20,000 bases of DNA from Sanchytrium tribonematis (Eukaryota), in the NCBI GenBank assembly GCA_018985235.1, contig JADGIG010000004.1, positions 52,348 through 72,347 of the forward strand, in the 5' to 3' direction. The position numbers were made by a program, and so were the translations under genes. The notes beneath the pieces were generated by a model, which did no database searches, was not told where the DNA came from, and worked only from the letters and a program-made list of their open reading frames with translations. Shown here one piece after another: positions 695 through 20,000 of this stretch (positions are counted from its first letter, which is position 1; each line of letters opens with the position of its first letter).

Positions 695-840
695 ATATTC
701 AGAAAAACCCAAATTCAGGTTTCAAAAAATCTAAGTCTCATTTCGTTAATTTTTACAGCTTACGCCAAAATACTAATTGTGCATGAAATAGCATCCGGAT
801 TTGTATATAAGATTTTAAAACGATACTTTTCTGCATTGAT

Positions 841-1155
841 TTATTCCTCGTCACAAATTTCTTCGTCACGCCAGAGAGTTCCAAGCCTACACCCACAAAG
901 TCCAGCTTGAGTCAAATGCCCAAGCAATCCTATATGAGGTTTTCTTGTTTGTAAAAAGTAGATCAAACTTACTGCTAGAGCCGTGGAATTTCCCGATTTT
1001 TCGTCCAGTTGAATGTTGTAAGCACTTACTATTGAGCCGAAGCAGAAGACTGATTTCTGTATCGTGGTCAAAGGCGATCTTCCAAACCAAATAAATGTAG
1101 AAGCAAGGAGACAAGACACCTGTTCCATCGACTTGTTCAAATCTGTTCCATTCAT
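841..1155 (-). CDS. Small hydrophobic protein, possibly Aim19-like mitochondrial membrane protein, 104 aa
   Basis: ATG-started ORF with AATAAA overlapping the stop. AYNIQLDEKSGNSTALAVSLIYFL loosely resembles the fungal Aim19 'D-x-E-x-G-x-G...AWS' region (recalled, weak). Confidence 0.45.
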   Translation of the reverse strand: MNGTDLNKSMEQVSCLLASTFIWFGRSPLTTIQKSVFCFGSIVSAYNIQLDEKSGNSTALAVSLIYFLQTRKPHIGLLGHLTQAGLCGCRLGTLWRDEEICDEE

Positions 1156-1175
1156 AACACATAAATATTTACTAC

Positions 1176-1838
1176 CTAATCACTTTCTACTTCACCGCCC
1201 TTAAATTCTTCGTCAGCGCTTTCTTCGTTGTCATCATCCTCCGCGTCGCTGCCATCTTCCATTAATGTATGTAACACTCTCTTTTGGTGGTATCCATGTT
1301 TTGGGATTGAAAAACTCTTATTAGTCTGCTGACAATAAGCTCTCACAATATCTACTTTCTCATTTGGAAAGTAGCTGACAGGCTTCCCATCTACCTCCAA
1401 AGTACAATTGTGGGAAGTCATATCTCCAATCTCAATTTTCTTCAGATTTTCCAGCTTGATAGCGAATGATTGTTTTGCATAGTAAAGAGCTACACCCTGA
1501 TCGCAAAGGTATAGATGACCACTGTGCATCAATGCAATACGTTCAATTACAGTCCAAGGCGTTGCGTTCTCTTCCAAACTTGACTCGCATGTGAACATGT
1601 GCTGGGTTTTCCCAGTAGTGAATAAAATCTTTCTCTTTTTTGAAGTCTCAAACTTGAAAAGGTCTTTTGGCAGCTTTCCAAATTTCTCTTTTGTGATAAC
1701 ACAGGTAAATGATTTAGCCAACTTTCTTTGCAATGGCTCAAAGTGTTCAACAACAGCTTGAAATACCTTTTTACTCTCTGGATAAGATTTGATAACAGCG
1801 TCGATCTGCGACTTTAATTCCTTGGGTAAACTGTCCAT
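1176..1838 (-). CDS. RTT106: Histone chaperone Rtt106-like protein (shortened), about 220 aa
   Basis: The N-terminus MDSLPKELKSQIDAVIKSYPESKKVFQAV resembles the yeast Rtt106 dimerisation region (FLDELPESLSRKI...LPSSLEIFEEL). There is a PH-like segment GHLYLCDQGVALYYAKQSFAIKLENLKKIEI and an acidic C-tail. An upstream in-frame ATG (1880) is an alternative start. Confidence 0.65.
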   Translation of the reverse strand: MDSLPKELKSQIDAVIKSYPESKKVFQAVVEHFEPLQRKLAKSFTCVITKEKFGKLPKDLFKFETSKKRKILFTTGKTQHMFTCESSLEENATPWTVIERIALMHSGHLYLCDQGVALYYAKQSFAIKLENLKKIEIGDMTSHNCTLEVDGKPVSYFPNEKVDIVRAYCQQTNKSFSIPKHGYHQKRVLHTLMEDGSDAEDDDNEESADEEFKGGEVESD

Positions 1839-1929
1839 AAATGTTTCAGGGAATCTTGTGTCATTTCCACGTATTTGCATGAACGTCCGCCACGTCCTCA
1901 AAAATAGCAACAATCAATTTATTTTATAA

Positions 1930-2922
1930 TTAAGAAATTTCAGCTATGACTTCTGAGGTTGACTTTAAAAAGCCAATATCCTTACCATTCTTTATTACTT
2001 TCATTCCTTTCGGCACATAAGCATCAGTAAATGTTGTACAAGGAATAGCCAATGGATACCACTCTGATTTGGAGCTGAAATCTTTGCTATGGCTTAAGTA
2101 AAAGGAATACTCAATTTTGCCATCTTTTACCTCTCCAATTTGATATAAATCTTGAAAATGACTCAAGTACCCAAATGATTCTGGAAGAGCTTGCGGTTTA
2201 AATGGAACATTATTTTGCATGTATATAGCAAGGCAATTATAAAAAAAGGCTTCAGGCGGCCGATTTTCGTATACAATTGGGAATTCAATGCCGTTTTTTG
2301 CGTCATAGAGATAAACAGTATTTCGGTTTGTATCAAAATCTGAACACTCTTGTTCAAAGCGGTAAAACAAAGATCGAATCTTGTTGTACAATAGTTTAGC
2401 AGTTTTGCTTCTGTCCCATTCTTGCAAATCATTGGAAAAAGATTGTAATAAAAATTCTCCATCATATCCAATCAGTAACTCTACGCCATAATCTTGACCA
2501 TTGGTAATGAACACGATTTTCAATTTGAGATACAATTGATTTTCAATCAAATGTTGCTTAGTGATCTCCAGCTCTTCTGTGTTCATTATGAACTCGACCT
2601 TTTCTTCATTCAAATCTAAAGGATACAATTTCACAGTACCTTCATCAACATTATCTTCTTCCATATCAATATCACTGTCATCCTCTTCATCCTCTTCATC
2701 ACTCATATCTTCTTCATTCTCATCCACCTCCATATCACCTCCAGTAAGCATATTTCCTAGAGCTGTTGTGATTCCTTGAGTGAGTTCGTTGACAACATTG
2801 GAGAGTTGTTCAGTAGTCAAAAAGAACTCAATAAGATTCTGTTCAAATTCGTTTCTTTCATTTGCAGAAAGATCATCAATTTTAGATGGGTTTGCTAGCA
2901 ATTGAAGGGAAGCGGCATCCAT
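1930..2922 (-). CDS. Hypothetical protein with acidic low-complexity segment, 330 aa
   Basis: Long ATG-started ORF with a D/E-rich tract at about aa 63-95 and AATAAA just after the stop. No family recognised. Confidence 0.75.
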   Translation of the reverse strand: MDAASLQLLANPSKIDDLSANERNEFEQNLIEFFLTTEQLSNVVNELTQGITTALGNMLTGGDMEVDENEEDMSDEEDEEDDSDIDMEEDNVDEGTVKLYPLDLNEEKVEFIMNTEELEITKQHLIENQLYLKLKIVFITNGQDYGVELLIGYDGEFLLQSFSNDLQEWDRSKTAKLLYNKIRSLFYRFEQECSDFDTNRNTVYLYDAKNGIEFPIVYENRPPEAFFYNCLAIYMQNNVPFKPQALPESFGYLSHFQDLYQIGEVKDGKIEYSFYLSHSKDFSSKSEWYPLAIPCTTFTDAYVPKGMKVIKNGKDIGFLKSTSEVIAEIS

Positions 2923-2978
2923 TTCAAGGGAAAGTTTTAAAATATAACCTCGACCAAAACTATCGCAAAAAAGATGAT

Positions 2979-5900
2979 TTATTCTGAATCTATAAGCTGC
3001 AATTTCTCTATCGTATCACCAATGGCAAATATTTCAGATTTGAAAACCTCGATTTTTTCCTTATTTTGAGTACGTACTTCTTCTGGCACTTTGGACTCAT
3101 AGTCTGCCATATTTACCAATTTTTGAGTGGATTTTAGCCCTGACTCAGCTTTCATAACCTTCTTAGAAAGCTTAGATATCTCTTTTTTGATATCTATTTG
3201 ACCTTTCACTAACAAATAAATTGCAACCGAAGGCGATACAGTCTGAATCATGCAGCCCTGTGGAACTTCATCTCCTTTACCCAAAACACTCAAGACGTCC
3301 AGACCCTTGACGAGACTTTGAACCAATGATGCCTCTGTAGAATAAATATTGAATTCTGATTCGGATTTAACATGGAGATAGACTAATTTAGAGAATATTA
3401 CCAGTAGCTTTAGAATTTATGTTGTATTGGGCCATTATGGAACGAATGTTACCAATTACCTTGACAACGTCGTCAAAAGAGTTCATAGAAGCTTCATCAT
3501 AAAACTTCTCTTCGAATTGGGGATATGATGATATCGTTATAGATTCCTTGTCTTGCTTTTTTCTTGGAAGCCGTTGCCAAAGTTCCTCTGTTACAAAAGG
3601 CATAAATGGATGCATCATTCGCAACGCTGAATCTAATGCGAAATATAAAGTATTTCTCACAGAATTTTGCTTTTGTGTATCTGTTTCTAAGTCGAGTAAT
3701 ACTTTAGTAGCCTCAATATATACATCACACAGCTCGTTTAAGAAATATTTATAAACTGATGACGTTGCTTGCATAAAGTTATAAGTTTCGAAGTGTGCTT
3801 CTACATCTCTTGCTGCCAAAACCAATTTAGCCAGTATCCATTTTTCTGCCAAAGAGATTGGTACAAAAGTTTCCTCAGGCTTAAAATCTTCCCCTAATTT
3901 CATCATTCCAAATTTGATAGCATTCCACATTTTGTTACAAAATTTTCGATAGCCTTCAACTCGTAATATATCAAGATTAATAGACTGTCCATCATTTGTG
4001 TAGGAGCAAAGTGCGAATCTCAAGGCATCGGTTCCACATTGTGGAATACCATTTGGATAAGATTGCTTTTGTCCCTGTTTGGCTGTGTTGACTTCTTTTT
4101 CATCCAAATTGCTTTCATTTAGCTTATTGTGTAAATACTCCAGCGTTATCCCTTCAATCACATCTACAGGATTGACAACATTTCCAAGTGATTTTGACAT
4201 TTTACGTCCCTGAGCGTCCCTAACCATTGCATGGCAAAACACTCTTTTGAAAGGCACCTGGTCAGTCAACAACAATCCCATCATCACCATTCTTGCGACC
4301 CAAAAAAACAAGATATCTTTTCCTGTCTCTAGTAAAGCATTGGGGTAAAACTTGCCTAGATCTAAAGTGTCGTCAGGCCAACCCAATGTTACAAAAGGCC
4401 ATAAAGCGGAAGAAAACCAAGTATCTAATACATCAGGATCTTGCTTGATTGTGACCTGTCCAAGTTTTTCAAAGCGAGATTTTGCTTTTTCTAATGCAGA
4501 TTTTTCATCATCAGAGACAATCCAATTTGAGTCGTCATTTTCATTCAACGGATTACCATCAATGTGGACCAAATATGCAGGTACCGTATGACCCCACCAT
4601 AATTGTCGCGAGAGACACCAATCTTGGATATTCTCGAGCCATCGATACCACTCCTTTTCGCTTAATTCCGGTTGAATCTTAAGTTCACCATTTTTCACTG
4701 CATCGACTGAACGTTTTGCTATTTCTTTACAATTCATCCACCATTGTGGTTTAAGTCGAGGTTCAATAATGTCACCAGATCTAGAGCAGATTGGAATCTG
4801 CATTGTATGATTCTTGACTCCAACAAATAATTTTCGATCCTCTAAAAATTTCATTATTTCTTCGCGAGCATCAAATCTCATCAGGCCTTTAAATCTCCCT
4901 GCATTATCGTTTAAACTTCCATCATCGTTGAGAATGTCAATAAATTGTAAATTATGTCTCTTACCAATATCGTAATCATTTGGATCATGGGCAGGTGTGA
5001 TCTTGACAACACCTGTTCCGAATTCGATGTCAACATACGAGTCCTTTATGACTGGTAGAAGTCTATCATGAATCGGATGTTTAACAAAAAGACCGTGGTA
5101 TTTTTTGTACCTTTCATCATCAGGGTTAACTGCAACTGCGGTGTCCCCTAGCATGGTTTCTAATCTAGTTGTTGCGATAACCAACTTTTCACCAGTTTTT
5201 ACTCCGTCTTTATTGCAAACTTCGTACTCAAATTCAACTAATACTCCAAACATGTATTTTTTCTTTGGGTTATGTCCAGGGACATTCAACATGGTTTTTC
5301 CTTTTAATTCTTTCTGATCTACCTCTAAATTTGACAAGGCCGTATTAAGTTTTGAGCACCAATTAACAAGTTTGGTGTCTCGATAAATCAATCCTTTTTC
5401 ATGTCCGATAATAAAAGCTCGATTGACAGCCTTGACAACTTTTGAATCCATCGTAAACACTACTCGATCCCAGTCAAAGCTTCCACCCAACCTACTCATT
5501 TGATCATAAATTCTGTGCCCATAATCATCTTTCCACTCCCAAACTTTCTTTAAAAATAAATCGCGACCTAAATCGTGTCTTGTCTTTTTTTCTTTTTTAT
5601 ATATTTGCTTCTCCACTACACTTTGGGTTGCTATTCCTGCATGGTCACAACCTGGAACATATAATGCAGCATCACCTTTCATTCTGTGATAACGAATCAA
5701 AGAATCCTGTACAGCTGTAGTCAACGCGTGCCCAATGTGCAAATAACCCGTCACATTTGGAGGAGGAAAAGTTATCACGTATGGTTTTCCATTTGGATTA
5801 ATTTCAGGTTTGAAAAATCCTTTGGTTTGCCACCAATCCTGCCAAGCAGCCTCAACCGCTTCCGGATCGTATTTCGCTTGGAATTCGCCTAATACTTTCT

Positions 5901-6090
5901 TTTCGCCTTTCGGCGTAACATTTACATACTTCTCGGCCTGTTCGTAATCTACAGTTTTACGAGTGGCAATAGCGTCTTCTGATTTCGAAGGCTTCAAATT
6001 CGAATTGTTTTTTTGCTTGGCGGCGAACTTCGCTAATTTTTCTAGCTTCTTCAGTTGCTTTGCGCTTAAAGGTTTGGCGCTTTTTTCCAT
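2979..6090 (-). CDS. VAS1: Valyl-tRNA synthetase, 1030 aa; exons 6090-3402 and 3382-2979
   Basis: PPPNVTGYLHIGH (HIGH), GCDHAGIATQ, DWCLSRQLWWGH, KMSKSLGN and a C-terminal coiled coil. Removing intron 3383-3401 joins the two ORFs in frame (...SKATVYLHVKSE...LVQSLVKG). Confidence 0.97.
3383..3401 (-). other. 19-nt spliceosomal intron in ValRS (GTAATATTCTCTAAATTAG)
   Basis: GT-AG ends, contains an in-frame TAA, and removal restores the frame to the C-terminal domain. Confidence 0.85.
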
Positions 6091-6131
6091 TAATTTTAAA
6101 GTTGTACGAAACGTCGGAGTGATAGAGACAG

Positions 6132-6449
6132 ATGCAACTTGTAAGATTTGTCCAGAAACTTAAGAATGAAACCGTTAGTATTGAACTCAAAGACAATACC
6201 GTAATAGAAGGTACAATCCAGTCTGTCGATATTTCTATGAATATACATTTGAAGATGGTGAAGAAGACATATAAAGGAGAGTCATTTAGTTTAGACTCTT
6301 TAGCAGTCCGAGGATCCACAATCCGGATAATAATTCTACCAGACTCATTGCCTTTAGACAATCTGCTTGTAGATGACACCCAATACACAAAAACAGGTAA
6401 AAAGAAGGAAGCTAATGTAAAATTGCGAAAAAATCATCCAATAAAATAA
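6132..6449 (+). CDS. SMD1: Spliceosomal core protein SmD1, 105 aa
   Basis: [20 protein letters not shown]...[15 protein letters not shown]...[23 protein letters not shown] matches the SmD1 Sm1/Sm2 motifs. Confidence 0.93.
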
Positions 6450-6467
6450 TTTGGCAAATTCTGTAAC

Positions 6468-7624
6468 ATGCAATTTTCTAAAATTATCCAGAGAGAATTT
6501 TCAACAAAAATATTGAAGAATAAAGCGCCACCCGCTGAGGGATTTATGGCAGGTTTGGACACTTCTCAATTTATTTTAAACAACGAGGACTTGGCCAAAA
6601 AATATTTCCCAAATTCAGATACATTCGTCAAATTAAATATGTGCCAAGCTATAAACGACGCACTGAGTATAACACTCGAAAAAGATGAGAAAGCCGTGGT
6701 ATTTGGAGAGGATGTTGCTTTCGGTGGTGTCTTCAGGTGCACCTTGAATCTAGCCCAGCGATTTGGTAAAGAAAGAGTTTTCAATACTCCATTGACAGAA
6801 CAGGGTATCGCTGCATTTGGAATAGGTATGGCATCCGTTGGTGCTACACCAATAGCTGAAATTCAATTTGCTGATTATGTTTTCCCAGCCTTTGATCAAC
6901 TTGTAAATGAAGCCGCCAAATATCGATATAGATCCGGAAATCAATTTAATGTTGGGGGGCTTACCGTCCGAATGCCATGTTCAGCTGTAGGACATGGCGG
7001 GCATTATCATTCCCAATCCGTAGAAGCCTACTTCATGCATTGCGCCGGATTAAAAATTGTAACCCCGAGGTCTCCCAGCCAAGCGAAAGGACTTCTTCTT
7101 GCCTCCATTAGAGATAAAAATCCAGTTTTATTTCTTGAACCAAAAATTTTATATAGGGCGGCAGTAGAACATGTACCAGATAAAGATTTTGAAATTGAGA
7201 TTGGGAAAGCTGAAATTATTAAAACAGGAAAAGATATAACTATGGTTGCATGGGGTTCTCAACTTTATGTTTGCGAGCAGGCCATTAAGATGGCAGAAAA
7301 AGCATTACCAGGAGTAAGTATAGAATTAATAGACCTAAAAACTCTTTCACCATGGGATGCTAAAACACTTGAAGAAGTTTATCCATTTTAATGTAGTCAG
7401 TTACAAAAACCGGGAGGTGTATAATAGCTCATGAAGCTCCTTTGACTGTAGGAGCTGGAGCTGAAATCGCAGCGAGACTTCAAGAAAAATGCTTTTTGCA
7501 TCTCGAAGCCCCAATACAAAGAGTGACTGGTTGGGATACCCCATTTCCTCTGGTATTTGAGAAATATTATGTTCCAAGTGCTGTCCGCTGCTTCGATGCC
7601 ATCAAAAGAGTAATGTCGTTTTAA
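6468..7624 (+). CDS. BCKDHB: 2-oxoisovalerate dehydrogenase E1 beta subunit, mitochondrial, 378 aa; exons 6468-7376 and 7397-7624
   Basis: [53 protein letters not shown] and [10 protein letters not shown]. Splicing restores the conserved [15 protein letters not shown] segment. Confidence 0.95.
7377..7396 (+). other. 20-nt spliceosomal intron in BCKDHB (GTTTATCCATTTTAATGTAG)
   Basis: GT-AG ends and an in-frame TAA inside. Removal gives ...KTLEE|SVTKTGR..., the conserved sequence. Confidence 0.92.
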
Positions 7625-7827
7625 AATTCGAATAAATTAGATATCTGAAACTAATGAAAAAGCCCGATTCTGTAATTTTATTGCAATTGTATGCAGCTCT
7701 ATGTGTAGAAAAAAGAACTAAAAAGAATTTGACTCATGAAATTCTAGACTGGACAGACATCCAGGATCCATTTCACTTTGAGTAAAAAGCTCGAAAATGT
7801 AAAATAAAATTGTGTGATATTTATTGA

Positions 7828-9200
<1,373 letters not shown>

Positions 9201-9627
9201 ATGTTTGAAAAAACATTTGATAATAACTGGGTCTATTGCAAATTTTATTTCTTGGAATAATGATATTATGTATTTATTTAAATCCTTACCAAACGAAAGC
9301 CTTCATGAAGGGCATAGAGAAATATCTACAAGAAAATATTCATTTTGAACTTGGCTTGTACACGGACCTGCCACTTGGAAAAGAAGAGTCAACTAGTATT
9401 AAATGGCGCTTGAAACGATGCTATAAGAACCATTGCGATACTAATAGCCTAACAGGCGCCACTAACATTTTCTTCGATTTGACTTTGACATTGAAACACA
9501 CTGTGATAAAAAGACAAATTTGCCGTCGGATTTTCATTTAAATTTTCGACAGATACATGGTTGGCATGAGTTTCCAGAAGCGCCTTGTCCTCGAAATTAT
9601 TTAAATGTTCCATTTCTCCGTCTAAAG

Positions 9628-10770
9628 ATGCTTCGCACTGCAACAACTCACAAAACAGACGTTGATTATTTTAAGCAATTTTCGAATTTGTATTTTTGCA
9701 GACTACAGCAAATTAAGCAGGATCTATTGAAGGTATTAAGAAGCAAAAACTTAGAACCGCTGGAAAAAGTTAGTGACATCGCAGACTTTGAAAATGACAA
9801 GTGTATAGTTATTGGGATAGTATTTCAAGATAAAAAAGTACAAGACTACTCTAAAATTGGAAAACTGGACTATTTAAATTCATTTTATTTAGAGGATGAG
9901 TATTCTCGCATTCCGCTTGACAGAAACGGACAAATACTTTTGAGCGGTAGCGTCGTTGCGGTGGAAGGGCTAATTAGTACAGATAAGATTGTAATTCAAA
10001 ATATTCATTACCCATACAATTTCACAGAAGTTCCTCGAAATATTGTTATGGAGCAAAAATGGATATGTTTATTGAGTGGAATGGAAATGGGTGGAGAAAA
10101 CAATACAGAATCGCTCAGTTTATTACATCATCTTTTAAGTGGACAAGCAATGGGTATTCCACTGGATATTTTGGAAAATCTCAATGCAATTGTGATTATT
10201 GGAGATTCATTCCATTGCCTTAGCCAGAAAACAATTGAGAATATGAATGCATTCGTGGGAAATTTATCCCAGTATCACAATATAGTGTTGGTGCCTTCAG
10301 CAAGCGACCCCACTACCGTAGCATTACCAAACAGCCCCATTCCTCTCCATCTGATACCTAAAGCATTGCAAACTGTTTCCTCGGTTGAAAATCCTGCTAT
10401 CTTTCAGTCAGAAGATGGACATGTTATATTCTCTTCTGGCGATGCGATCAACAATATCACGAAGGTGCTCAAGTCTAGTGGTATGGAAATGAGTTCCATC
10501 GATATTGCCAGAACCTTGGTCAAGTGCAAGCATTTAGCCCCATGTTGCCCAGATACTCTGCCTTGTATACCGAGCTATTCTGTGGACCCTCTTTATCTTA
10601 AAGAAACTCCTGATTATCTATTTATTGGTAATATGAATGATGTTAAAGACGCAATAGTGGGAAAATGCAGAATTATTTTGGTGCCAAATTTTACAGCAAC
10701 TGGCAAAGTCGTGTTTTATAATTTTGAGCAGAACATTTACAAGATTGTATCCATAAGTAAAGATTGTTGA
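9628..10770 (+). CDS. POL31: DNA polymerase delta small subunit (Pol31/POLD2), about 380 aa
   Basis: QFSNLYFCRL, YLEDEYSRIPL, GSVVAVEG, PSASDPTTVALPNSPI and HLAPCCPDTLPCIP...DP match POLD2 motifs. The first ATG is at 9628. Confidence 0.88.
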   Translation: MLRTATTHKTDVDYFKQFSNLYFCRLQQIKQDLLKVLRSKNLEPLEKVSDIADFENDKCIVIGIVFQDKKVQDYSKIGKLDYLNSFYLEDEYSRIPLDRNGQILLSGSVVAVEGLISTDKIVIQNIHYPYNFTEVPRNIVMEQKWICLLSGMEMGGENNTESLSLLHHLLSGQAMGIPLDILENLNAIVIIGDSFHCLSQKTIENMNAFVGNLSQYHNIVLVPSASDPTTVALPNSPIPLHLIPKALQTVSSVENPAIFQSEDGHVIFSSGDAINNITKVLKSSGMEMSSIDIARTLVKCKHLAPCCPDTLPCIPSYSVDPLYLKETPDYLFIGNMNDVKDAIVGKCRIILVPNFTATGKVVFYNFEQNIYKIVSISKDC

Positions 10771-11097
10771 TTATTTCGTGGACAATTTGACATATGCGTT
10801 TGTCAATAAAGATTTGTACACTAAACCTTGGGTATTTCTAAATGCATGATACTCGTTAATGTTGCGAGCCGTGCTCTTCGTGTTTAGCAGAATAGGGATA
10901 TATTTTGATCCTTTCATTTGCTTCAAGCTTGATGAGATTTGCTGCGAATCCATTGGAGTATGAAATACCTTTTTGATAGCGTTTACTGCTTCTTCGTTAA
11001 ATTCTTTATCTGTATCTATTTTCTGCACAATTTCATTCTCCCATTTTTCAATTAGCAAGGAAATATCCAAGTTCATTGTTATGGGGGAATCTGACAT
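10771..11097 (-). CDS. Hypothetical protein, about 108 aa
   Basis: ATG-started ORF (MSDSPITMNLD...) that fills the gap between POL31 and OST2. No family recognised. Confidence 0.55.
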   Translation of the reverse strand: MSDSPITMNLDISLLIEKWENEIVQKIDTDKEFNEEAVNAIKKVFHTPMDSQQISSSLKQMKGSKYIPILLNTKSTARNINEYHAFRNTQGLVYKSLLTNAYVKLSTK

Positions 11098-11196
11098 AAT
11101 TTTTCCATTCGAAAAAAATGCAGATTTTAAGAATCTCAAAGAAAAACAAACCAATCAAAGGCCCACCATAACTTGCACGTTGATCAATTTATTCGA

Positions 11197-11541
11197 TTAG
11201 CCCAAATAGTTGCTTACAAATGCATTTAATACGACTGCGCAGGCAACAAACTCTGCAAATTCGACAGGTTTCTCGGCATTTCTTAAATTTGCCACCAATA
11301 CGAAGCAGCCTACGGAATATATAAATGATGCCAAAAAAGCATTAAAAGGAAATGATCCTGATAAAGCGCAATATGCAAAGATTAAAATACCTGTAAACAT
11401 ACAAAAAACCAAATAGGTATCTAAGAACTGGGTCAATGAATCTGTAGTTTTGTAGTATGAAGTTTCTTTAACAGGACTTGTAGGTGAAGCGTCACTAAAT
11501 TCTGCCGAATTATTTTTCGATTTGGACTTGGACTTTGCCAT
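11197..11541 (-). CDS. OST2: Oligosaccharyltransferase subunit Ost2/DAD1, 114 aa
   Basis: FLDTYLVFCMFTGILIFAYCALSGSFPFNAFLASF...FVLVANLR...FAEFV...NYLG is the DAD1 family signature. Confidence 0.92.
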   Translation of the reverse strand: MAKSKSKSKNNSAEFSDASPTSPVKETSYYKTTDSLTQFLDTYLVFCMFTGILIFAYCALSGSFPFNAFLASFIYSVGCFVLVANLRNAEKPVEFAEFVACAVVLNAFVSNYLG

Positions 11542-11581
11542 TTAATGTTTCAAAAATTTAGAAATTCAATTTATTTTCAAA

Positions 11582-13857
11582 TCAAATCAAGGCGTGCTGC
11601 ATATAAAGCATTTTTCTAACCATGAAATATTCACGGCTAATCACACCCTCTATTTGTAAGGCTCCGTCTTTTGACTTTTGAAGTACAATTTTGTCTTCAA
11701 TTACCAAACAACCTTGCCTAAACGATGATTTCATACCTATATCCTCTAAGCACTGTCGAAAATCGGACAATCGAAAATCCTTAGATAAAAACATGTTTGG
11801 GTAGGAATGATCCGCATTTCTACTTGGAGTAGTATCCAAAATTACATCGTCATTGGTCATTTCCACCTTCCCATATATAAAACTTAAATCATAAGGGTCC
11901 AACCGTTGGAATTTTAATTTGCTCATGAGGGCATCAGTCAGTTTGGCCTAAATAAACAACGAATTACATTAATCACGTTACCAGCACTTGAAATTTCAAT
12001 CCATTCATTATTGATAGATGGTATCACTTCCGCGTTTGCAATATCAGTGGAAATCTCCTCAATAAATTTTGATAGGCCCCTAGTTAAAATTAGTTTCTTC
12101 GGTTCTAGTTGGGAGAATATGGTTAGCATTGAGGGTCCGTCACTTAATCCCTGCATGTCAACAAAGAGAAAGAAAAACTTTGCTTTTGAATTAAATTCTC
12201 TCTGTTCCACTTTACTTGGTACATAATCAACTCCTTGAGGTATTTCCTCTTCGTCGTCTTCTATGACAGTAGGTAAAATGCCTTTAGACTCATATTTTGA
12301 GGTGTCAATGATTAGTCCATACTCGTCCCATTTTCTTTTGCCTAATAAAGAATCTTTGGAACTTATCGTGGGTATACCTATTGGATATTCGGTGTATGGA
12401 AACATGCGGTTGACATCCGAGTCATAAACAAACAAGTCATGAGTTTTTGAGAAATGATCAAGCTGAATATCAGTAATGTGTTGTTTGTGGACAGCAGCTT
12501 CATTGTCGTCTCCCATTTCTGACAGTTCAGTGATTGAAGATTCGTCATCTAATTCTAAATTTTCATCAACATCCATGTCAGTATTTGGCTTTTTCTTCTT
12601 CTTTTTCAACGATTCTGCTTCCTGCTGCTTTAAAATTTCCAATTCTCTTAGTTTTTGCTCCTCTTGATAATATTTTTGCAACTCTTCACCTTCTAAAGGC
12701 ACATTTACATTATATTCATGACTTAGTTCACCATTGACTAGTCTTAAAGGTAGTTGCTCCATGTCGCTGTTCTCTGCTTTCCAAATCTGCAATAATTTGT
12801 CAGATAAAGAGCCAGGAGTTGGCCTACTGGTTAAAATGATAGCAGAATCGCTTGCAACATACTTCAGTGTCAACTCTCGACCAAAAGTATCTTCTAAGTC
12901 TTTGTCAATCGTGACTACTACATACGGACCCCTTGGAAGCTTTTCGATCTCTTCTATCACGTTAAAAAACCGAAATTCAAATGGATGCTTACGTGTGGTG
13001 GCAAATTCCGAGCTCAGGGCATCCGAAAAACTTTCAAGCATTCCCTTCCCGTACTGAATCCATTTTTTTGCATTTTTTGCCAGAAAAAAAATCGGATGTT
13101 TGCAATAATTTTTCTTTTTTGTATCGTAATCGTGGCACCATGCGTTATCCAATATATACAAAATCTCAAAGAGACGAGCTGTTGCATCAACTGGAACTAG
13201 AACATTTGCTCTCTTTTTTAATGCATGAATAATGGAATTTACAAACTTGGCTTCCCGATCACGACTGGTCCCTGAATCAAGTTCAAAAACGTCAATGTTT
13301 GTAATTAAACATGTAGGCTTAGTAAATATCTCGGAAACAGACCCACCCGAGAATAAGTCGCTTGGGTTTAATGCCTTTTCTCTTTTATGGTTTATGTTGA
13401 GACAATAAAGAAAATCACTTGCCATGTAACTTATTTTATAAAATGATCCACCTGGTGAATGTGCCGAATTATAGGCTATTAGCTCGACTTCTCCAACTTT
13501 GAATGGTTGCATATAAGTTACATTGATGGCATTCTGAAATGAATTCTCAATTTCCTTAATCAACTCATTCCCATCAAAGTATTGGAGCAATGCCATTCTA
13601 GAAAAGTATAGCGTTGGCAAAGTGGCATATATTGGGCCGGTATATCCTTTTTTAGATAATTTGGGCAAATCTTTGACACATTCCAAGCTCGAATGTGACA
13701 ATAACACAGCGTCTATATTACAATCAAAATCATCAGGAATATATCCCACGTCAAGAAGGATCTTTTTTCTGTCAATCTCAAGCAGATAAGACACTTGATA
13801 ATCTTTCACTTTCTCTTCTTCGATTCCGCCTCGAATCGCACAAAATCTCACACTCAT
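11582..13857 (-). CDS. CFT2: Cleavage and polyadenylation specificity factor subunit 2 (CPSF100/Cft2), about 751 aa; exons 13857-11968 and 11947-11582
   Basis: Inactive metallo-beta-lactamase/beta-CASP pattern (KILLDVG, IDAVLLSHS, VLVPVDATARLFEIL, MFPY, WDEYG, VDMQGLSDGPSM). The C-terminal domain reads RLSDFRQCL...LQIEGVISREYFMVRKMLYMQHALI. Confidence 0.9.
11948..11967 (-). other. 20-nt spliceosomal intron in CPSF100 (GTAATTCGTTGTTTATTTAG)
   Basis: Removal gives NVIN|AKLTDALMSKLKF, joining the two ORFs in frame. Confidence 0.85.
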
Positions 13858-14019
13858 TTGTGATAAGGAGAAAATCTTCAGGTCAGCAGTTAATGGTGGA
13901 AATTGACGCAAAACATAGCTAAAGAATGTCAACATATAGCCTCAATTATCCTAGAAATTTGTTATTTTCAACATTTAAAAATTGGGGAATGTCCCTTTAA
14001 ACAAAAATTAAATTTTTAA

Positions 14020-14107
14020 GTAAGTAGTGCATGTGATGAGCTTCAGAATCGTACGGGCGGTCTTACTTCTGACGACAAGAGATTCGCTGACGCAATTTTT
14101 AATTTAG
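14020..14107 (+). other. Putative 88-nt snoRNA-hosting intron in a non-coding transcript
   Basis: GTAAGT donor at 14020 and TTAATTTAG acceptor ending at 14107, identical to the 3' end of RPT1 intron 1. It brackets the snoRNA, and AATAAA follows at 14131-14136. Confidence 0.7.
14028..14094 (+). ncRNA. Box C/D snoRNA, U43/SNORD43/snR70-like, with a second candidate guide
   Basis: C box GTGATGA 14033-14039; guide ACGGGCGGT 14053-14061, complementary to universal SSU rRNA ACCGCCCGU; D' CTTA 14062-14065; C'-like TGACGA 14070-14075; D box CTGA 14087-14090; terminal TGC/GCA stem. Confidence 0.88.
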
Positions 14108-14189
14108 AACCAATCCTTTCAATCTGATTTAATAAATACTGTTTTGTTTTCACTTTTAAAGTTTGAACATTTGGAGTCCCTTTAGAAAC

Positions 14190-14945
14190 ATGAGTGCCGT
14201 CAATTTGTCGAGATTGATCCGGAAATATAAGCTTGGTAAGCAGATAACAATGGTGACAGCGTGGGATTCTATGACCGCTCAATTTATAGAAAAAAGTAGA
14301 GTAGACTGTTTATTGGTTGGCGATTCTTTAGCAATGACAGCCCTTGGTCATGAATCTACCGTACCTCTTGGACTAGATGAAATGATACATCACACAAAAG
14401 CAGTGGCGCGAGCAGCAAAGCGGCCATTTATTATATCAGATATTCCATTTTCTTCCATGAATAATATTATCGACTCGGCTATTCAGCTAATGAAATGTGG
14501 CGCGAATTCTGTGAAGCTTGAAGGTGTTCATGAAAATATTAAAAAAATGGTCAGTTTAGGAATTCCTTGTTTGGGACACATAGGCTTAAATCCGCAACAT
14601 GTAAATCAACTTGGTGGATATAAAGTGTATCGCAATGAAGATATTATTGAGCAAGCAAAATTATTACAATCTTTTGGATGTTGGGGTATTGTATTGGAGG
14701 CTGTACCGTCAAGTATTGCCAAGAAAGTGCAATCTAGTGTTGATATTCCATTAGTTGGAATAGGCGCTGGCAAATTGGACGGGCAAGTACTGGTGTTTCC
14801 TGATCTTCTAGGGCTAAGTACCAGTGTACCTAAATTTTGTAGGGTAATGGCAAAAGCAGGTGAAGAAATTGATACTGGGCTTGAAAATTTTTGCGAATCG
14901 GTAGAGTCCCTCAACTTTCCTGCAGAAGAAGAAGAGTATAAGTAA
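14190..14945 (+). CDS. ECM31: 3-methyl-2-oxobutanoate hydroxymethyltransferase (PanB/Ecm31), 251 aa
   Basis: ITMVTAWD, LLVGDSLAM, DEMIHHTKAVAR, VKLEG, GHIGLNPQ and GIGAG..DGQVLVFPDLLG. Confidence 0.95.
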   Translation: MSAVNLSRLIRKYKLGKQITMVTAWDSMTAQFIEKSRVDCLLVGDSLAMTALGHESTVPLGLDEMIHHTKAVARAAKRPFIISDIPFSSMNNIIDSAIQLMKCGANSVKLEGVHENIKKMVSLGIPCLGHIGLNPQHVNQLGGYKVYRNEDIIEQAKLLQSFGCWGIVLEAVPSSIAKKVQSSVDIPLVGIGAGKLDGQVLVFPDLLGLSTSVPKFCRVMAKAGEEIDTGLENFCESVESLNFPAEEEEYK

Positions 14946-15019
14946 GTCATATTTTGATCAATATAATTTAAATAAAGATCTCATAATGAATATTTTGTCG
15001 CAATAATTCTCCTTCAGAC

Positions 15020-15217
15020 ATGTTTTCTATTGTTAGAAGAGCAAAGCCATCAGATGTCATTTTTAACATTGTCAAAGACGAACTTTCAAAATTTAAGCCG
15101 ATAGTTGTCAAACCAAAAGATCCTCTTCTTATTAATGATATATCTGCACCTAAAGCCCCTGAGGCTGTTCAATTTAAGCCTGTGACTGCAGAAGAGTTGC
15201 AAAAATACGATTCTTAA
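15020..15217 (+). CDS. ATP14: Probable mitochondrial ATP synthase subunit h (Atp14-like), 65 aa
   Basis: Presequence-like MFSIVRRAK. DVIFNIVKDELSKFKP...D...SAPKAPE resembles the fungal subunit h pattern D-x-(V/I)-Q-D-L-Y-L-x-E-L-K-x-Y-K-P...F-S-x-P-K-x-P. AATAAA overlaps the stop. Confidence 0.6.
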   Translation: MFSIVRRAKPSDVIFNIVKDELSKFKPIVVKPKDPLLINDISAPKAPEAVQFKPVTAEELQKYDS

Positions 15218-15301
15218 ATAAAGTTTAATCTTATCGCCAAATTTGTTCTCTTTCACTTTATTTTTAAAAAAATCTTCCAAATATTTTCAAGAAGTTGAAA
15301 C

Positions 15302-18300
15302 ATGATTATTTTTGCCGCAACATTTTATACGATTATTACAGTATCCCTAATAACTCCGTTGCAAGTAAGCTATTTGCAGGAATACATTGTATTTTTGTCC
15401 ATATTTTATCCTAAATCAAGCCATCAAAGATATATACAAAACTACGATGAACTAGATGCAGATGTCAAAAAATATCTTAATTTTAATCATCATGCGAATT
15501 GGGTTCACGGTTCTATGAATGACAAAGCTTGGCCCAGACTGGATCTTGGAACAAGTGGTTCTGTCAAATTGATCGATTTAGATGTTCTTGATAATATGCA
15601 ATGGAAGGAAGTTTTCGAGCTGGTAGCCAATTATCGTCTGAAAATCAAGTTTGTATATAACAAAAATCTTCCTTTTGTTTATTTAGGTGGCTACGGTGTA
15701 GAATTAGTGTTGAAATCGACTGAATATTCTGTATCTGATGATCGCCATATTGAAAACTCATTTACTTTGGAACACAATAAAGATGATGCTCTGGACTTGC
15801 CAGTTAGTTCCAAAAAAATAGAAGATAACGAAATTAAAGAAAAAGCATTCTCGTATATATATTCCCTTGATGAAGATGACAAATCAAGGTTTGATGCTTT
15901 ACGCGTATTATCTCAAAATTTCATTATGTATCAAGAATTCATTTCAAATCAAAAAGTGAACAAAAAGTTGATCAAAAACATTATGTATAATTCCAAAAGA
16001 AAAGATTACCATGGAATGTTTTTAAATGGATTAAACATTCACCAAGATTTAACAAATGCCATTGGACTTGATGGCTTGATTCGAGATGAAAAAATTGCAA
16101 TGAATTATGTTTCCGATAAAAATGCTTTTTTTAAATCAAAATCATCCTCAAAAATCACTTACCAAATTGCTGTCCCCACTTGGCTCAACCAAATCGAGGG
16201 TAATTCTAAATTTAAGTCATATCCGGCAACTTTACAGGAAGCATTTCAAATGTGGCAATTTTACCGTCAAATGATGCCAGTGATGCCTATTCAAAAGCAC
16301 ATCATCAACGTAGTTATAATTTCTAATTTACCTAATATTAAGTATGTAGAATCAATTCTGACTGCTGATATTGCAATACATCTTGGAATCGTACCAATAC
16401 CTTACAGCGATGAGGATCCGGGGCTTTCATACGCGCTGCATTTTATTGCAAAGAAAAATATTAGAAAAGTGCGGGACTTTCTTCGTGAATACATCGAATC
16501 GGATAAGCCATACATCGAGAGAATCAAATCGTCTTGCGAGTCAGTTATAAAATGTGACAAATTAAGGTCAAGCTATTTGCAAGAACTGCCTCAGTTGAAG
16601 AAGTTTGCTGATCGTTTACAACTTACAAGTAAGACCAATTTATACTGGTTAAATGGAGAAATCTATAAATTGGAAGAAGATTTTGAACAAATGATTATTC
16701 AGCACTCTCGGGAGCAATACGCGGCATTGTTTGACCTGCTCGAGACTGGTCAGGTTGATGACAGCACCAATTTTTTCAATTTTTTCAACAAAGGATTTGC
16801 AAGCCGCCATGAAATTCTCGATAATGTGAACGATTACAAACAGTTGAGTTTGTTGGGTGGGGAGGACATTTTAGGAGAAATTGAGTATTTGAGTAGTATA
16901 TCTGAATCGAAAAGTATAGTCATACTTTTTTGCCAAATCGCCTCTATAATATGCAAGGAAACGCAAGAATCTTTAAAAGCCTTTCATGTGAATACAGAAA
17001 ATTGGACTTCTGAATCTTTGAATATACAAAGTATCCCCTTAATATTAGCTTTTGCCAAAACAGCCGGTGAAAGCGCAATTTTAATTAATGGGAGACTCTA
17101 TCAATTCAATAATACCTTATCTCGTTCTGTTTTGGACCAATTAGCTAATAGAGAAGAAATTGTGGTGGACTGTGAAGATACAAAAATTTGCCACTTAAAT
17201 TTGTTTGGAATTAATTATTCAAACTCTGCGATTGAGAAGAGAAATAGTCTTTATTATTCTTCGATATCACGTAAAACAATGACATCGAAGTTGAAAAGGT
17301 AAACATTTTTAACGAAGACCATTGGAAATTCACAATGTTAATTGCAAAGTCAATATTACAGCCGTCTTTGATCCATTTACAGACAGCGGGCAAAAGCTTA
17401 TATCCGTTTTAGAGAATATTGACGGCTGTGTAACTTTTCATCCCATCATTGAAGAGGGTATTTCTAAACGATTTTATCGCTATCTAAATCCAAGTGAATC
17501 TACACTAAAAACAGTTACATTTAAGACGCTCCCAAAACAAATTTTGGTAACCAGTGGTATCGATGCTCACCCAAGCTGGGTAGTTGCTGCAAAAAGAGCA
17601 GCACATGATCTAGACAATATACGCATTTCAGGTTCTGATGTTTTTGCTGAGTATGAATTAAAAAATCTTGTAATAGTAGGACATTGCTTTGATGTCAATG
17701 GTTCTCCTGCAGCTGGACTACAGCTTGAGCTTTACTCTAAAAATTATAGTGATGACACAATTGTGATGAGTAATTTAGGATACTTTCAACTCAAGGCTCA
17801 TTCAGGTATTTATAAATTTAGAATAAGATCTGGTAAAAGTAAAGAAATTTACAAAATACAAGAAGTTAAAGACAGTATCGGAAACTCTATTGAAGAGTCT
17901 GAAGGAGAATATACAATACTATTGGATAGCTTTGAAGGAAAAGTTCTGTTGCCCAAAGTCAAAAAACAAGCTGGTAAAGAGGCTATTGATCTGGTCGGCG
18001 ATGACCTTAATCCTGCTGACTCAGTCTGGGATTTTGTCAAGAAAGCAATGAAAACTGAGAAGATAATCAATATATTTACCGTAGCAAGTGGTCACTTATA
18101 TGAAAGATTTTTATCAATTATGGTCAAAAGTGTCTTGATGCACACCAAGTCTCGGGTTAAATTATGGTTAATTGAAGACTTTCTCTCGCCAAACTACAAA
18201 ACTTTTGTTGGAAAATTCGCAGAGAAGTACGATTTTGATTATGAATTTGTCACCTATAAATGGCCCAGCTGGTTGCGTTATCAAAAAGAAAAACAAAGAT

Positions 18301-18917
18301 TAATTTGGGCATACAAGATACTCTTTCTTGATGTTCTCTTTCCATTAAATCTGGAACGAATTATTTTTGTTGATAGCGATCAGATTGTTAGGACAGATCT
18401 CCAAGCCTTGATGGATCTCGATCTTAACGGGAAACCATATGCATACACTCCATTTTGCTATAGCAAAAGAGAGGATACCAAATCATTCAGATTTTGGGAG
18501 TCCGGATACTGGAAGTCTCATTTAGGTGATTTGCCATATCACATCTCTGCCCTATATGTAGTAGATTTGAAAAGATTTAGACAGATGGCAGCAGGAGATA
18601 TTTTGAGAGGCCAATATCAGCAATTGACAATAGACCCAAATTCTTTAGCCAACTTAGATCAAGACTTGCCAAATAATATGCAACATAAAGTACCAATATA
18701 CTCTTTAGACGAATCCTGGTTATATTGCGAAACTTGGTGTTCCGATGAAGTATTTGCAAAAGCAAAGACCATTGATTTATGCAATAATCCTTTAACCAAG
18801 GAACCCAAATTGGTTAGAGCAAAAAGACAAATAAAGGAATGGGTTGAATATGATGATGAAATCGCAGAATTTGCAAGCACATTGAAAGCAAATAGAGAAG
18901 AAAAAGAAGAGCTTTAG
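15302..18917 (+). CDS. UDP-glucose:glycoprotein glucosyltransferase (UGGT), 1198 aa; exons 15302-17298 and 17318-18917
   Basis: Hydrophobic N-terminus, GYGVELVLKSTEY, DTIVMSNLGYFQLKA, INIFTVASGHLYERF, YKILFLDVLFPL, IFVDSDQIVR, NSLANLDQDLPN, WLYCETWC and a C-terminal KEEL ER-retention signal. Confidence 0.95.
17299..17317 (+). other. 19-nt spliceosomal intron in UGGT (GTAAACATTTTTAACGAAG)
   Basis: GT-AG ends and an in-frame TAA inside. Removal joins the two ORFs in frame (KLKR|PLEIH). Confidence 0.82.
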
Positions 18918-18934
18918 GAATAAAATCAATTTAA

Positions 18935-19381
18935 TCACACAATCATGTTATTCTTTTCAGAAATTTGCAGCTTTGGTATGTCTTCATCTAAGGTAATATA
19001 AAATCTTTTAAGATAAGCTAAAGTGGTAGATGCAAAAGCCACAACACAAATGAGAACTACAGATGTGGTCCAAATCAAAAATCTTCTTGCGTCAGCGATA
19101 TCATCTCTTGGTGCTTTCAGTTTTGATAGTTGCTGATCTTCACTGATTACAGAGATCAGGATGATCGTGAAAAATGTTAAAATTGAAAAGAGATACACCA
19201 ATCCAGCACTAACAAGTCTTTGCTTCTTACTGACTGCATGTAATCCGAAGGCCCCTGATAATATAAACAATGGCCCGTTTAAAATGTCACCCATGGTAAC
19301 CAAGAAAGTCCCAAATATTGCTTGCGAAGCAAAAGATACCAACAAAGTGTTGGAAATTGAGTTAGACGCCATTGTTTCCAT
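18935..19381 (-). CDS. Hypothetical multi-pass membrane protein, about 148 aa
   Basis: ORF with about 4 hydrophobic segments. The start is at 19381 or 19372 (19447 is also possible). Confidence 0.65.
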   Translation of the reverse strand: METMASNSISNTLLVSFASQAIFGTFLVTMGDILNGPLFILSGAFGLHAVSKKQRLVSAGLVYLFSILTFFTIILISVISEDQQLSKLKAPRDDIADARRFLIWTTSVVLICVVAFASTTLAYLKRFYITLDEDIPKLQISEKNNMIV

Positions 19382-19413
19382 CACGTCTCCTTGATTTGCC
19401 ACAATTAAATGAT

Positions 19414-19650
19414 TTATTCTACAGACTGCACTGTGACCTGAACGCATTTAAATCCTCTATTAGTAGACTTTAATTTTTTAATTTGTACATCAATGTTGCT
19501 GGGAATGTCCTTTGGAAGATCAAATCCGTAAAGTCCTGATTCAACTTTTCTAACTATTTTCATCATTTCTGGAGAGCAAGTCTTTTGTTGGGGAACACTT
19601 AATAGCTGAAAATCACTTACAAAATAAATCCCTTTAAATATTTCGTGCAT
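19414..19650 (-). CDS. Hypothetical small protein, 78 aa
   Basis: TATATAAAA and GTCCCT lie upstream of the ATG. The stop sits in GAATAAATCA, the same context as the ValRS stop. Confidence 0.45.
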   Translation of the reverse strand: MHEIFKGIYFVSDFQLLSVPQQKTCSPEMMKIVRKVESGLYGFDLPKDIPSNIDVQIKKLKSTNRGFKCVQVTVQSVE

Positions 19651-19770
19651 AGGTTAGGGACGGCTATTACTTTTATATACGAGGCTGAGAACTCTAAAAC
19701 AATGAACTAAATTTAGATATCTTGACCCCACAAAGAAAAAGGAAAACAATTTACTTCAAAGAATTACACC

Positions 19771-20000
19771 TCAGTTAGATTGATCTGAAGTAACAGAAAA
19801 CTGGTCTACAGATGGTGAAATTTTCGCTGAATTTGACTTTCTACTTTCCTGACTCTCAGAATTTGAATGTTCTACTTCGGGTGAAGCTGGGCTTAATGAT
19901 TGACTTCTCGAGCCAGAGTTTGGGCTTAATTCGTGCTTGTGAATGGAACTAGCATGTATTATCGGAGAAACAGCTTTGGGCCCCATATTGAGAAAACTGC
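19771..20000 (-). CDS. 3' end of a gene with a Ser/Pro-rich, disordered-looking C-terminus (partial)
   Basis: The frame is open from the window end to TGA at 19771-19773. Confidence 0.55.
   Translation of the reverse strand, partial: SFLNMGPKAVSPIIHASSIHKHELSPNSGSRSQSLSPASPEVEHSNSESQESRKSNSAKISPSVDQFSVTSDQSN

What the first reader, a model, noticed from the sequence alone, without database searches (positions are those of the whole stretch)
3383..17317. Ultra-short 19-20 nt spliceosomal introns in a fungus-like nuclear genome
Seen: six frame breaks in conserved genes (ValRS 3383-3401, BCKDHB 7377-7396, RPT1 8162-8180 and 8483-8501, CPSF100 11948-11967, UGGT 17299-17317) are each repaired by removing a GT-AG segment of 19, 20, 19, 19, 20 or 19 nt. 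Three of these restore highly conserved motifs (GKT, NRPD, SVTKTGR). Established: introns this small are known from heterotrich ciliates (15-16 nt) and chlorarachniophyte nucleomorphs (about 18-21 nt); microsporidian introns are usually in the low 20s or longer, and typical fungal introns are much longer. Inference: this lineage, which keeps aerobic mitochondrial genes, has independently evolved a near-fixed minimal intron length, implying a remodelled spliceosome. Standard gene callers would split these genes.
Basis: partly seen in the sequence, partly recalled or inferred. Interest (0 to 1): 0.9.

Follow-up and report, generated by a model that had tools for sequence, protein, structure and literature searches.

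The report
Nineteen-base introns in a parasitic fungus
Five housekeeping genes of a fungus that groups with the alga-parasitic sanchytrids are broken by six 19-20-base segments with intron ends and an adenine at a fixed place; these are likely true spliceosomal introns, likely the shortest yet noted in fungi, and public protein lists for this group cut the genes off at them.

Summary
Observation confirmed. All six GT-AG segments (19, 20, 19, 19, 20, 19 nt) lie at the stated coordinates; removing them gives five complete, stop-free proteins. Two gene trees place the window with Amoeboradix gromovi (Sanchytriomycota, support 100). Intron-blind public proteins of relatives break at the same junctions (8 of 8 tails examined); two tails decode to introns of exactly 19 and 20 nt, so this is no assembly artefact. 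Three positions are shared with non-sanchytrid eukaryotes (37 and 77 nt there): old introns that shrank. 'Remodelled spliceosome' is not shown: A. gromovi's published annotation lists most core factors; Slu7 and Prp18 are unlisted, weak but fitting. No RNA evidence and no genome-wide count were possible. I found no paper describing sanchytrid introns; the genome paper predicted ORFs without splicing. Earlier scan notes cover longer introns in Rozella and Neolecta, not this lineage. New member of a known kind.

The parts
3383..3401 (-). 19-nt phase-1 intron in ValRS (gene 6090-2979); likely branch A at intron position 14 (-6)
   Evidence: same break in A. gromovi P0003 and ENA P0002 with the stop at intron nt 12-14; GTAAG donor at the same place and phase in a non-sanchytrid contig L076
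7377..7396 (+). 20-nt phase-0 intron in BCKDHB (gene 6468-7624); likely branch A at position 15 (-6)
   Evidence: A. gromovi tail decodes to 19 nt; ENA P0402 stop at nt 13-15; 77 nt decoded in non-sanchytrid P0437
8162..8180 (-). 19-nt phase-2 intron (second) in RPT1 (gene 9200-7828); TACTAAT before the acceptor
   Evidence: same break in P0122, P0243, P0244; P0243 tail decodes to 20 nt; 37-nt intron at the same place in L086
8483..8501 (-). 19-nt phase-0 intron (first) in RPT1, inside the Walker A motif (GK|T); absent from the three relatives
   Evidence: P0122, P0243, P0244 read through the motif without a break
11948..11967 (-). 20-nt phase-0 intron in CPSF100 (gene 13857-11582); T at -7 instead of A
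   Evidence: A. gromovi P0252 breaks at the same place, stop at nt 13-15
17299..17317 (+). 19-nt phase-2 intron in UGGT (gene 15302-18917); AAG acceptor; boundaries least certain
   Evidence: thioredoxin-like domains upstream, GT24 domain downstream; no homologue test at the junction
6132..6449 (+). Sm/LSm-fold protein (SmD1-like by recalled resemblance): a spliceosomal core component encoded in the window, intronless
   Evidence: Pfam LSM, E 6e-16

Best explanation
The six 19-20-nt GT-AG segments, each with T at -8 and A at -6, are likely ordinary major-type (U2) spliceosomal introns of a sanchytrid fungus, likely shrunk from longer ancestral introns and predicted to be removed as a 14-15-nt lariat with a 5-nt tail. 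Shown by sequence: ends, lengths, ORF repair, fixed 3' signal (consensus Y-T-A-A-Y-K-T-A-G), AT-rich interior (83% v 63% in gene spans), shared positions with relatives and with distant eukaryotes. Inferred: the A at -6 is the branch nucleotide paired by U2; the donor is little more than GTA (5 of 6); the intron is recognised as one unit whose length is part of the signal (look-alike segments of 16 and 34 nt in UGGT coding sequence score as high but cannot be removed without breaking the protein); with only 5 nt from branch to 3' end the acceptor would dock without Slu7/Prp18, as in yeast for distances under 7 nt, so these factors may be lost while the core spliceosome stays conventional. Deletion bias in a compact parasite genome down to a steric floor is the likely cause.
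For: ORF repair, best of alternatives; T-8/A-6 in 6 of 6, A-7 5 of 6, Y-9 6 of 6; 37 of 200,000 shuffles; each outranks 114 of 114 decoys; AT content; clade with A. gromovi, SH-aLRT 100 for ValRS, 100/100 for BCKDHB; 8 of 8 relative tails break at the junction; only L=19 for A. gromovi BCKDHB, score 108 v at most 11, and 83 v 12 with an Allomyces reference; only L=20 possible for the ENA RPT1 tail; both decoded tails put N = AAY so that A falls at -6; positions shared with non-sanchytrids; Stentor branch A at 10 of 15 and 11 of 16, 5-nt tail; spliceosome and debranching enzyme listed for A. gromovi; Slu7, Prp18 not listed; 68, 69 (Slu7/Prp18 not needed at short branch-acceptor distance); 83 (16- and 34-nt decoys).
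Against: No RNA shows the junctions or a lariat. Only six introns from one 20-kb window and two decoded lengths; longer or in-frame introns elsewhere in the genome are not excluded. Four of the eight relative tails only place a stop codon at the expected TAA position, which is compatible with 19/20 nt but does not measure it; two tails are uninformative. CPSF100 lacks the A at -7 and ValRS has A at -5. The absence of Slu7, Prp18, U1C and Smu1 rests on name and KEGG-number searches of an intron-blind annotation covering 3,755 rows of about 7,220 proteins of a relative, not of this organism. Short microsporidian introns are spliced at under 20%, so efficiency here is unknown.
Confidence: 0.9

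Rival explanations
1. Real spliceosomal introns, but only the short tail of a broader length distribution; nothing fixed about 19-20 nt and no special geometry genome-wide.
For: Only six introns seen directly; frame-breaking short introns are the easiest to see; four unannotated ORFs in the window could hide others.
Against: 6 of 6 introns in the window and 2 of 2 decoded in two other taxa are 19-20 nt; no longer intron was needed to complete any of the 16 gene models, and no high-scoring 18- or 21-nt sense segment was found.
Confidence: 0.2
2. Assembly or whole-genome-amplification artefacts, or frameshifted pseudogenes.
For: The only run that holds the DNA may be its source, and the contigs served covered only 19196-20000, so no junction was checked on reads.
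Against: Independent assemblies (A. gromovi, two ENA metagenome taxa) break at the same codons; exons on both sides are intact and conserved in essential single genes; GT-AG ends and a fixed T/A signal in 6 of 6.
Confidence: 0.02
3. Non-spliceosomal removal, by a structure-guided endonuclease and ligase (Ire1/HAC1-like or tRNA-type; recalled, not from a call) or by ribosomal bypassing.
For: Similar length to the 20-nt unconventional HAC1 introns of filamentous fungi (recalled).
Against: No shared or unusual fold across the six junctions (z from -1.5 to +2.0); canonical GT-AG ends, branch-like motif, positions homologous to spliceosomal introns of other eukaryotes; spliceosome and Dbr1 listed in the relative.
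Confidence: 0.02
4. Minor (U12-type) introns, whose branch point also lies close to the acceptor.
For: Short branch-to-acceptor distance; T-T-A-A-Y resembles part of the U12 branch box (recalled).
Against: None of the six carries the long conserved U12 donor (recalled consensus); positions +4 to +8 are variable.
Confidence: 0.01

Closest known systems
Tiny introns of Stentor coeruleus and other heterotrich ciliates (PMC9505925; passages read)
   Same: GT-AG ends, GTA donor, AU-rich, two adjacent lengths, branch A at a fixed place leaving a 5-nt tail, largely conventional spliceosome.
   Different: 15-16 nt (lariat 10-11) versus 19-20 nt (lariat 14-15); free-living, intron-rich ciliate versus compact parasitic fungus; here a clearer T-A-A-Y box.
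Chlorarachniophyte nucleomorph introns, Bigelowiella natans (PMC2483917 passages; PMC10245619 section 7)
   Same: Same length class (18-21 nt, median 19), donor largely GT(A).
   Different: Relic endosymbiont nucleus, intron-rich; reported to show no branch-point signature, whereas these six have a fixed one.
Mikrocytid introns, Mikrocytos mackini (PMC10245619; section 7 read)
   Same: Parasite, narrow two-length range, introns in essential genes.
   Different: 16-17 nt, highly conserved sequence, spliceosome cut to 17-19 proteins, none in metabolic genes; here a metabolic gene (BCKDHB) has one and the relative lists many splicing factors.
Microsporidian short introns, Encephalitozoon cuniculi (PMC3629993 passage; PMC6349667 passages; PMC2483917)
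   Same: Closest precedent among fungi and kin: GT-AG, TAAYTT branch box, reduced parasite genome.
   Different: 22-76 nt, mostly right after the start codon of ribosomal-protein genes, spliced under 20%; these are 19-20 nt and lie 700-2700 nt into non-ribosomal genes of an aerobic fungus.
Myxobolid myxozoan and dicyemid introns (PMC13644364; parts 1-2 of 3 read)
   Same: Opisthokont parasites with ancestral intron positions shrunk, GTa donor, U2AF kept.
   Different: Median 22-27 nt with a spread of lengths, and the A residues move away from the AG as length grows; here the A stays at -6.

Membership tests
U2-type spliceosomal introns | GT...AG ends whose removal restores the reading frame and homology | tested here: met
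   6 of 6 ends; 5 of 5 ORFs complete; best of alternatives in 5 of 5 with a profile
U2-type spliceosomal introns | Branch-point A in a TRAY-like box upstream of the acceptor | tested here: met
   T-8 and A-6 in 6 of 6, 37 of 200,000 shuffles; use as branch point is inferred
U2-type spliceosomal introns | Removed from mRNA as a lariat in vivo | not testable with these tools
   No RNA holder listed
U2-type spliceosomal introns | Spliceosome encoded by the organism | tested here: inconclusive
   Sm-fold gene in the window; core factors listed for the relative A. gromovi; no genome held for this organism; no snRNA in the window
U2-type spliceosomal introns | Positions homologous to spliceosomal introns of other eukaryotes | tested here: met
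   3 of 6 positions (ValRS, BCKDHB, RPT1 second); the other three had no informative outside record
Ultra-short fixed-length intron systems (heterotrich, mikrocytid, nucleomorph type) | Nearly all introns of the genome within a 2-4-nt range under about 22 nt | tested here: inconclusive
   6 of 6 in the window, 2 of 2 decoded in relatives; no genome-wide data
Ultra-short fixed-length intron systems (heterotrich, mikrocytid, nucleomorph type) | Strongly reduced or altered spliceosome (mikrocytid type) | tested here: inconclusive
   Many factors listed for A. gromovi; Slu7, Prp18, U1C, Smu1 not listed in an intron-blind, half-annotated set
U12-type (minor) introns | Long conserved donor sequence (consensus recalled) | tested here: not met
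   Positions +4 to +8 variable
Structure-guided non-spliceosomal introns (Ire1/tRNA type) | Conserved stem-loops at both junctions (recalled) | tested here: not met
   No common fold, z -1.5 to +2.0
Sanchytriomycota (organism) | Groups with Amoeboradix gromovi on a long branch among zoosporic fungi | tested here: met
   ValRS quick tree SH-aLRT 100, BCKDHB 100/100, 27 rows each; four orthologues on one A. gromovi contig; placement of the clade within Fungi unresolved in these single-gene trees

The most novel reading that the evidence does not exclude
The whole phylum Sanchytriomycota splices only 19-20-nt introns, the shortest intron system in fungi and in opisthokonts, by a ruler mechanism (branch A fixed at -6, length itself part of the signal) that converged on the Stentor geometry and let it discard Slu7 and Prp18; it still gains or loses such introns (first RPT1 intron), and published sanchytrid proteomes and gene-loss inferences are systematically truncated by them.
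Probability: 0.5. Interest if true: 0.85.

Novelty: new member of a known kind. Interest (0 to 1): 0.72.

Why it matters
It adds an independent origin of near-minimal spliceosomal introns, the first I could find in an aerobic fungus and shorter than the 22-nt minimum quoted for E. cuniculi and the 22-nt median record for animals. The same 5-nt branch-to-end tail in a fungus and in Stentor points to a structural floor of the spliceosome, testable in yeast with fungal parts. Practically, 5 of 16 gene models in this window are split, and the sanchytrid genome paper predicted ORFs from contigs with TransDecoder, so protein sets, phylogenomic matrices and gene-loss lists for this phylum likely need re-annotation with a 19-20-nt intron model.

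Tried and rejected
Whole genome: none held, so no genome-wide histogram or spliceosome search. Sequencing runs: no RNA holder listed; one DNA run that may be the source; its served contigs cover only 19196-20000 and test no junction. Metagenome scan with ValRS gave 80 loci, none sanchytrid (best 55% identity). A junction-spanning RPT1 pattern found 0 viral stretches and 8 in prokaryote genomes, of which 1 (L086) is a non-sanchytrid eukaryotic RPT1 and 7 have no RPT1. Rfam: 0 matches in the window. PDB gave no UGGT match upstream of the UGGT junction. A loose rule (GT..AG, T-8, A-6) matches dozens of coding segments and does not define introns by itself. In-frame 15-nt GT..AG look-alikes in the Sm gene and near the UGGT start were judged coding by eye from recalled homologue motifs, not tested. 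Origin of the first RPT1 intron by local duplication: its first 9 nt match 8 of 9 at 33 nt upstream (P about 0.02), but the ancestral ValRS intron shows an equal match (P about 0.015) among six tests, so I do not rely on it. The 118 RPT1 homologues with the Walker A motif are mostly spliced models and say nothing on that intron's age. The ValRS careful tree did not finish; the quick tree is reported. Earlier scan notes: none for this genome, none naming sanchytrids, only archaeal AAA hits by sequence.
Full report
Observation. Pfam identifies the flanking pieces as halves of ValRS, BCKDHB, RPT1 (three pieces), CPSF100 and UGGT. Removing the segments gives five complete ORFs without internal stops (1030, 378, 444, 751, 1198 aa; UGGT ends KEEL) and the junctions align without a gap in the window row to full-length homologues for ValRS (10 full-length rows), BCKDHB (9), RPT1 (8; one database model lacks 10 residues after the second junction) and CPSF100 (9 non-sanchytrid rows). 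Among all GT..AG excisions of 4-199 nt that join the frames without a stop (28, 12, 18, 19, 6, 14 for ValRS, BCKDHB, RPT1 first, RPT1 second, CPSF100, UGGT) the claimed cut is the shortest in 6 of 6 and the best by profile score in 5 of 5 tested. UGGT could not be tested by homology; a 28-nt alternative exists.

Anatomy. Aligned on the 3' end, all six have a pyrimidine at -9, T at -8 and A at -6; five have A at -7 and T at -3; five begin GTA; positions +4 to +8 vary. A common T.A at any one distance arose in 37 of 200,000 shuffles of the interiors (a common A alone in 2,011). Interiors are 83% AT against 63% in gene spans, and leave-one-out weight matrices rank each intron above all 114 other 19-20-nt GT..AG sense segments. 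Over lengths 15-60 on both strands (4,806 segments) the only sense segments that score like the real ones without sharing their acceptors are in UGGT coding sequence (34 nt at 15653-15686; 16 nt at 17806-17821 and a 52-nt version with the same acceptor); removing them would break a conserved protein, so length is likely part of the signal. No 18- or 21-nt in-frame candidate stood out. Density is about 0.34 introns per kb of gene span, against 1.30 published for Allomyces (PMC8476143 passages). The junction regions share no fold.

Organism. The nearest ValRS, RPT1, BCKDHB and CPSF100 relatives are Amoeboradix gromovi proteins from one contig (70, 91, 80, 69% identity) and unnamed ENA metagenome proteins. 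Trees of 27 rows each give window + ENA + A. gromovi support 100 (ValRS, quick tree) and 100/100 (BCKDHB) on a long stem; the position within Fungi is unresolved in these single genes. The window is therefore a sanchytrid other than the A. gromovi record; the published phylum is sister to Blastocladiomycota, aerobic, parasitic on algae, with 10-11-Mb genomes of about 35% GC (PMC8371127, section 5 part 1).

Independent support from relatives. Their public proteins were predicted without splicing, so they run into their introns. Eight relative tails were examined and 8 of 8 leave homology at the window's junction: ValRS 2, BCKDHB 2, CPSF100 1, second RPT1 site 3. Two read through the intron into the next exon in a shifted frame and can be decoded: only L=19 restores the next exon for A. 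gromovi BCKDHB (score 108 against at most 11; 83 against 12 with an Allomyces reference) and only L=20 is possible for the ENA RPT1 tail; in both an Asn codon puts an A at -6. Four tails stop at intron nt 12-14 (ValRS, two taxa) or 13-15 (ENA BCKDHB, A. gromovi CPSF100), where the TAA of the branch box lies in a 19- or 20-nt intron; this is compatible, not a measurement. Two stop too early to tell. The first RPT1 intron (GK|T) is absent from 3 of 3 relatives: one gain in the window's lineage or one loss in the others. UGGT was not examined in relatives.

Age of the positions. An unnamed non-sanchytrid BCKDHB (P0437) breaks at the same codon and decodes to 77 nt (138 against 29), and a partial Chytriomyces model ends there. 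A eukaryotic contig (L086) has a 37-nt intron at the second RPT1 site, same phase, and Serendipita, soybean and Logan models end or diverge there. A fungus-like contig (L076) has a GTAAG donor at the ValRS site, same phase, at its end. So 3 of 6 are old spliceosomal positions that shrank; for the other three I had no informative outside record.

Mechanism. Shown: sequence features and conservation. Inferred: U2-type splicing by intron definition, branch at -6, lariat of 14-15 nt plus 5-nt tail. Stentor has its branch A at 10 of 15 and 11 of 16 nt with the same 5-nt tail (PMC9505925 passages). The supplementary eggNOG table of PMC8371127 (searched, 3,755 A. gromovi rows; the second species' sheet is cut at 171 rows) lists Prp8, cactin, U1-70K, SF3B1, both U2AF subunits, BBP, Brr2, Prp22-like helicases, Dbr1, Isy1, Luc7-like, Cwc25, Prp17 and CCDC94/Yju2. 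It returned nothing for Slu7, Prp18, U1C or Smu1 by the names and recalled KEGG numbers I used. Slu7 and Prp18 are dispensable in yeast when branch and acceptor are under 7 nt (PMC3392075 passages) or at most 9 nt apart (PMC10158995 passages), so their loss would fit, but an intron-blind, half-annotated list cannot show absence. A heavily remodelled spliceosome is not supported.

Comparison and novelty. Ultra-short introns are a known kind: heterotrichs 15-16, mikrocytids 16-17, nucleomorph 18-21 nt (PMC10245619 section 7), E. cuniculi 22-76 nt (PMC3629993 passage), myxobolids median 22-27 nt (PMC13644364 parts 1-2), Rozella about 30 nt (PMC6349667 passage), medians 29-197 nt in a set of early-diverging fungi (PMC8042348 passages), Hamiltosporidium mean 28 nt (PMC10542269 passages). 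B. natans introns match in length but are reported without a branch signature (PMC2483917 passages). For sanchytrids, searches 'sanchytrid + intron' (2 papers), 'Amoeboradix + introns' and 'sanchytri + intron' were run; I read passages of two (PMC8371127: 'intron' once, in a reference title, 'splic' never, ORFs by TransDecoder on contigs; PMC10459994: once, in a reference) and saw the other seven only as listings with unrelated titles. General searches listed no fungal 19-20-nt system. Subscription papers and the genome paper's large Supplementary Information PDF were not searchable, so 'not in print' is limited to that.

Verdict. Real, well beyond chance, shared across at least three sanchytrid taxa, and apparently unreported: a new, independent member of the ultra-short intron class with a fixed branch geometry, probably the shortest in fungi. 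RNA proof, a genome-wide count and an intron-aware spliceosome inventory remain open. Interest 0.72.

Noticed in passing
window 224-19381: Very dense gene packing: 15 intergenic gaps of 0-427 nt, median 56, among 16 gene models.
   Followed up: no
window 2979-13857 versus A. gromovi contig NODE_35: ValRS, BCKDHB, RPT1 and CPSF100 orthologues lie on one A. gromovi contig, and ENA contigs of equal length carry ValRS with BCKDHB: conserved microsynteny among sanchytrids.
   Followed up: partly
P0002/P0121/P0243/P0402/P0521 and P0244: Two further, unnamed sanchytrid-like taxa in ENA metagenome assemblies, with the same intron positions.
   Followed up: partly
window 8483-8501 (-): First RPT1 intron splits the Walker A motif and is absent from three relatives: recent gain or loss of a 19-nt intron; weak 8-of-9 match to sequence 33 nt upstream.
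   Followed up: partly
PMC8371127 supplement, A. gromovi NODE_116 p11/p12: Branchpoint-bridging protein is listed as two adjacent ORFs, possibly split by such an intron.
   Followed up: no
window 19196-19310: Run X1 holds a second 115-nt variant with five differences at about a third of the depth (36 v 103): allele or paralogue of the unannotated membrane-like ORF 18935-19381.
   Followed up: no
window 15302-18917: Spliced UGGT is 1198 aa against 1494 aa for the solved fungal protein, so part of the N-terminal region is shortened or lost.
   Followed up: no
window 14190-14945: PanB (ketopantoate hydroxymethyltransferase) is kept in this reduced parasite.
   Followed up: no
L086:2031-3452: A eukaryotic RPT1 gene with introns sits in a contig filed under a Verrucomicrobiaceae genome bin: likely contamination.
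   Followed up: partly
window 841-1155, 1930-2922, 9260-9541, 10771-11097, 18935-19381: ORFs without a Pfam family at the curated cut-off; 15020-15217 weakly matches ATP synthase subunit h.
   Followed up: no
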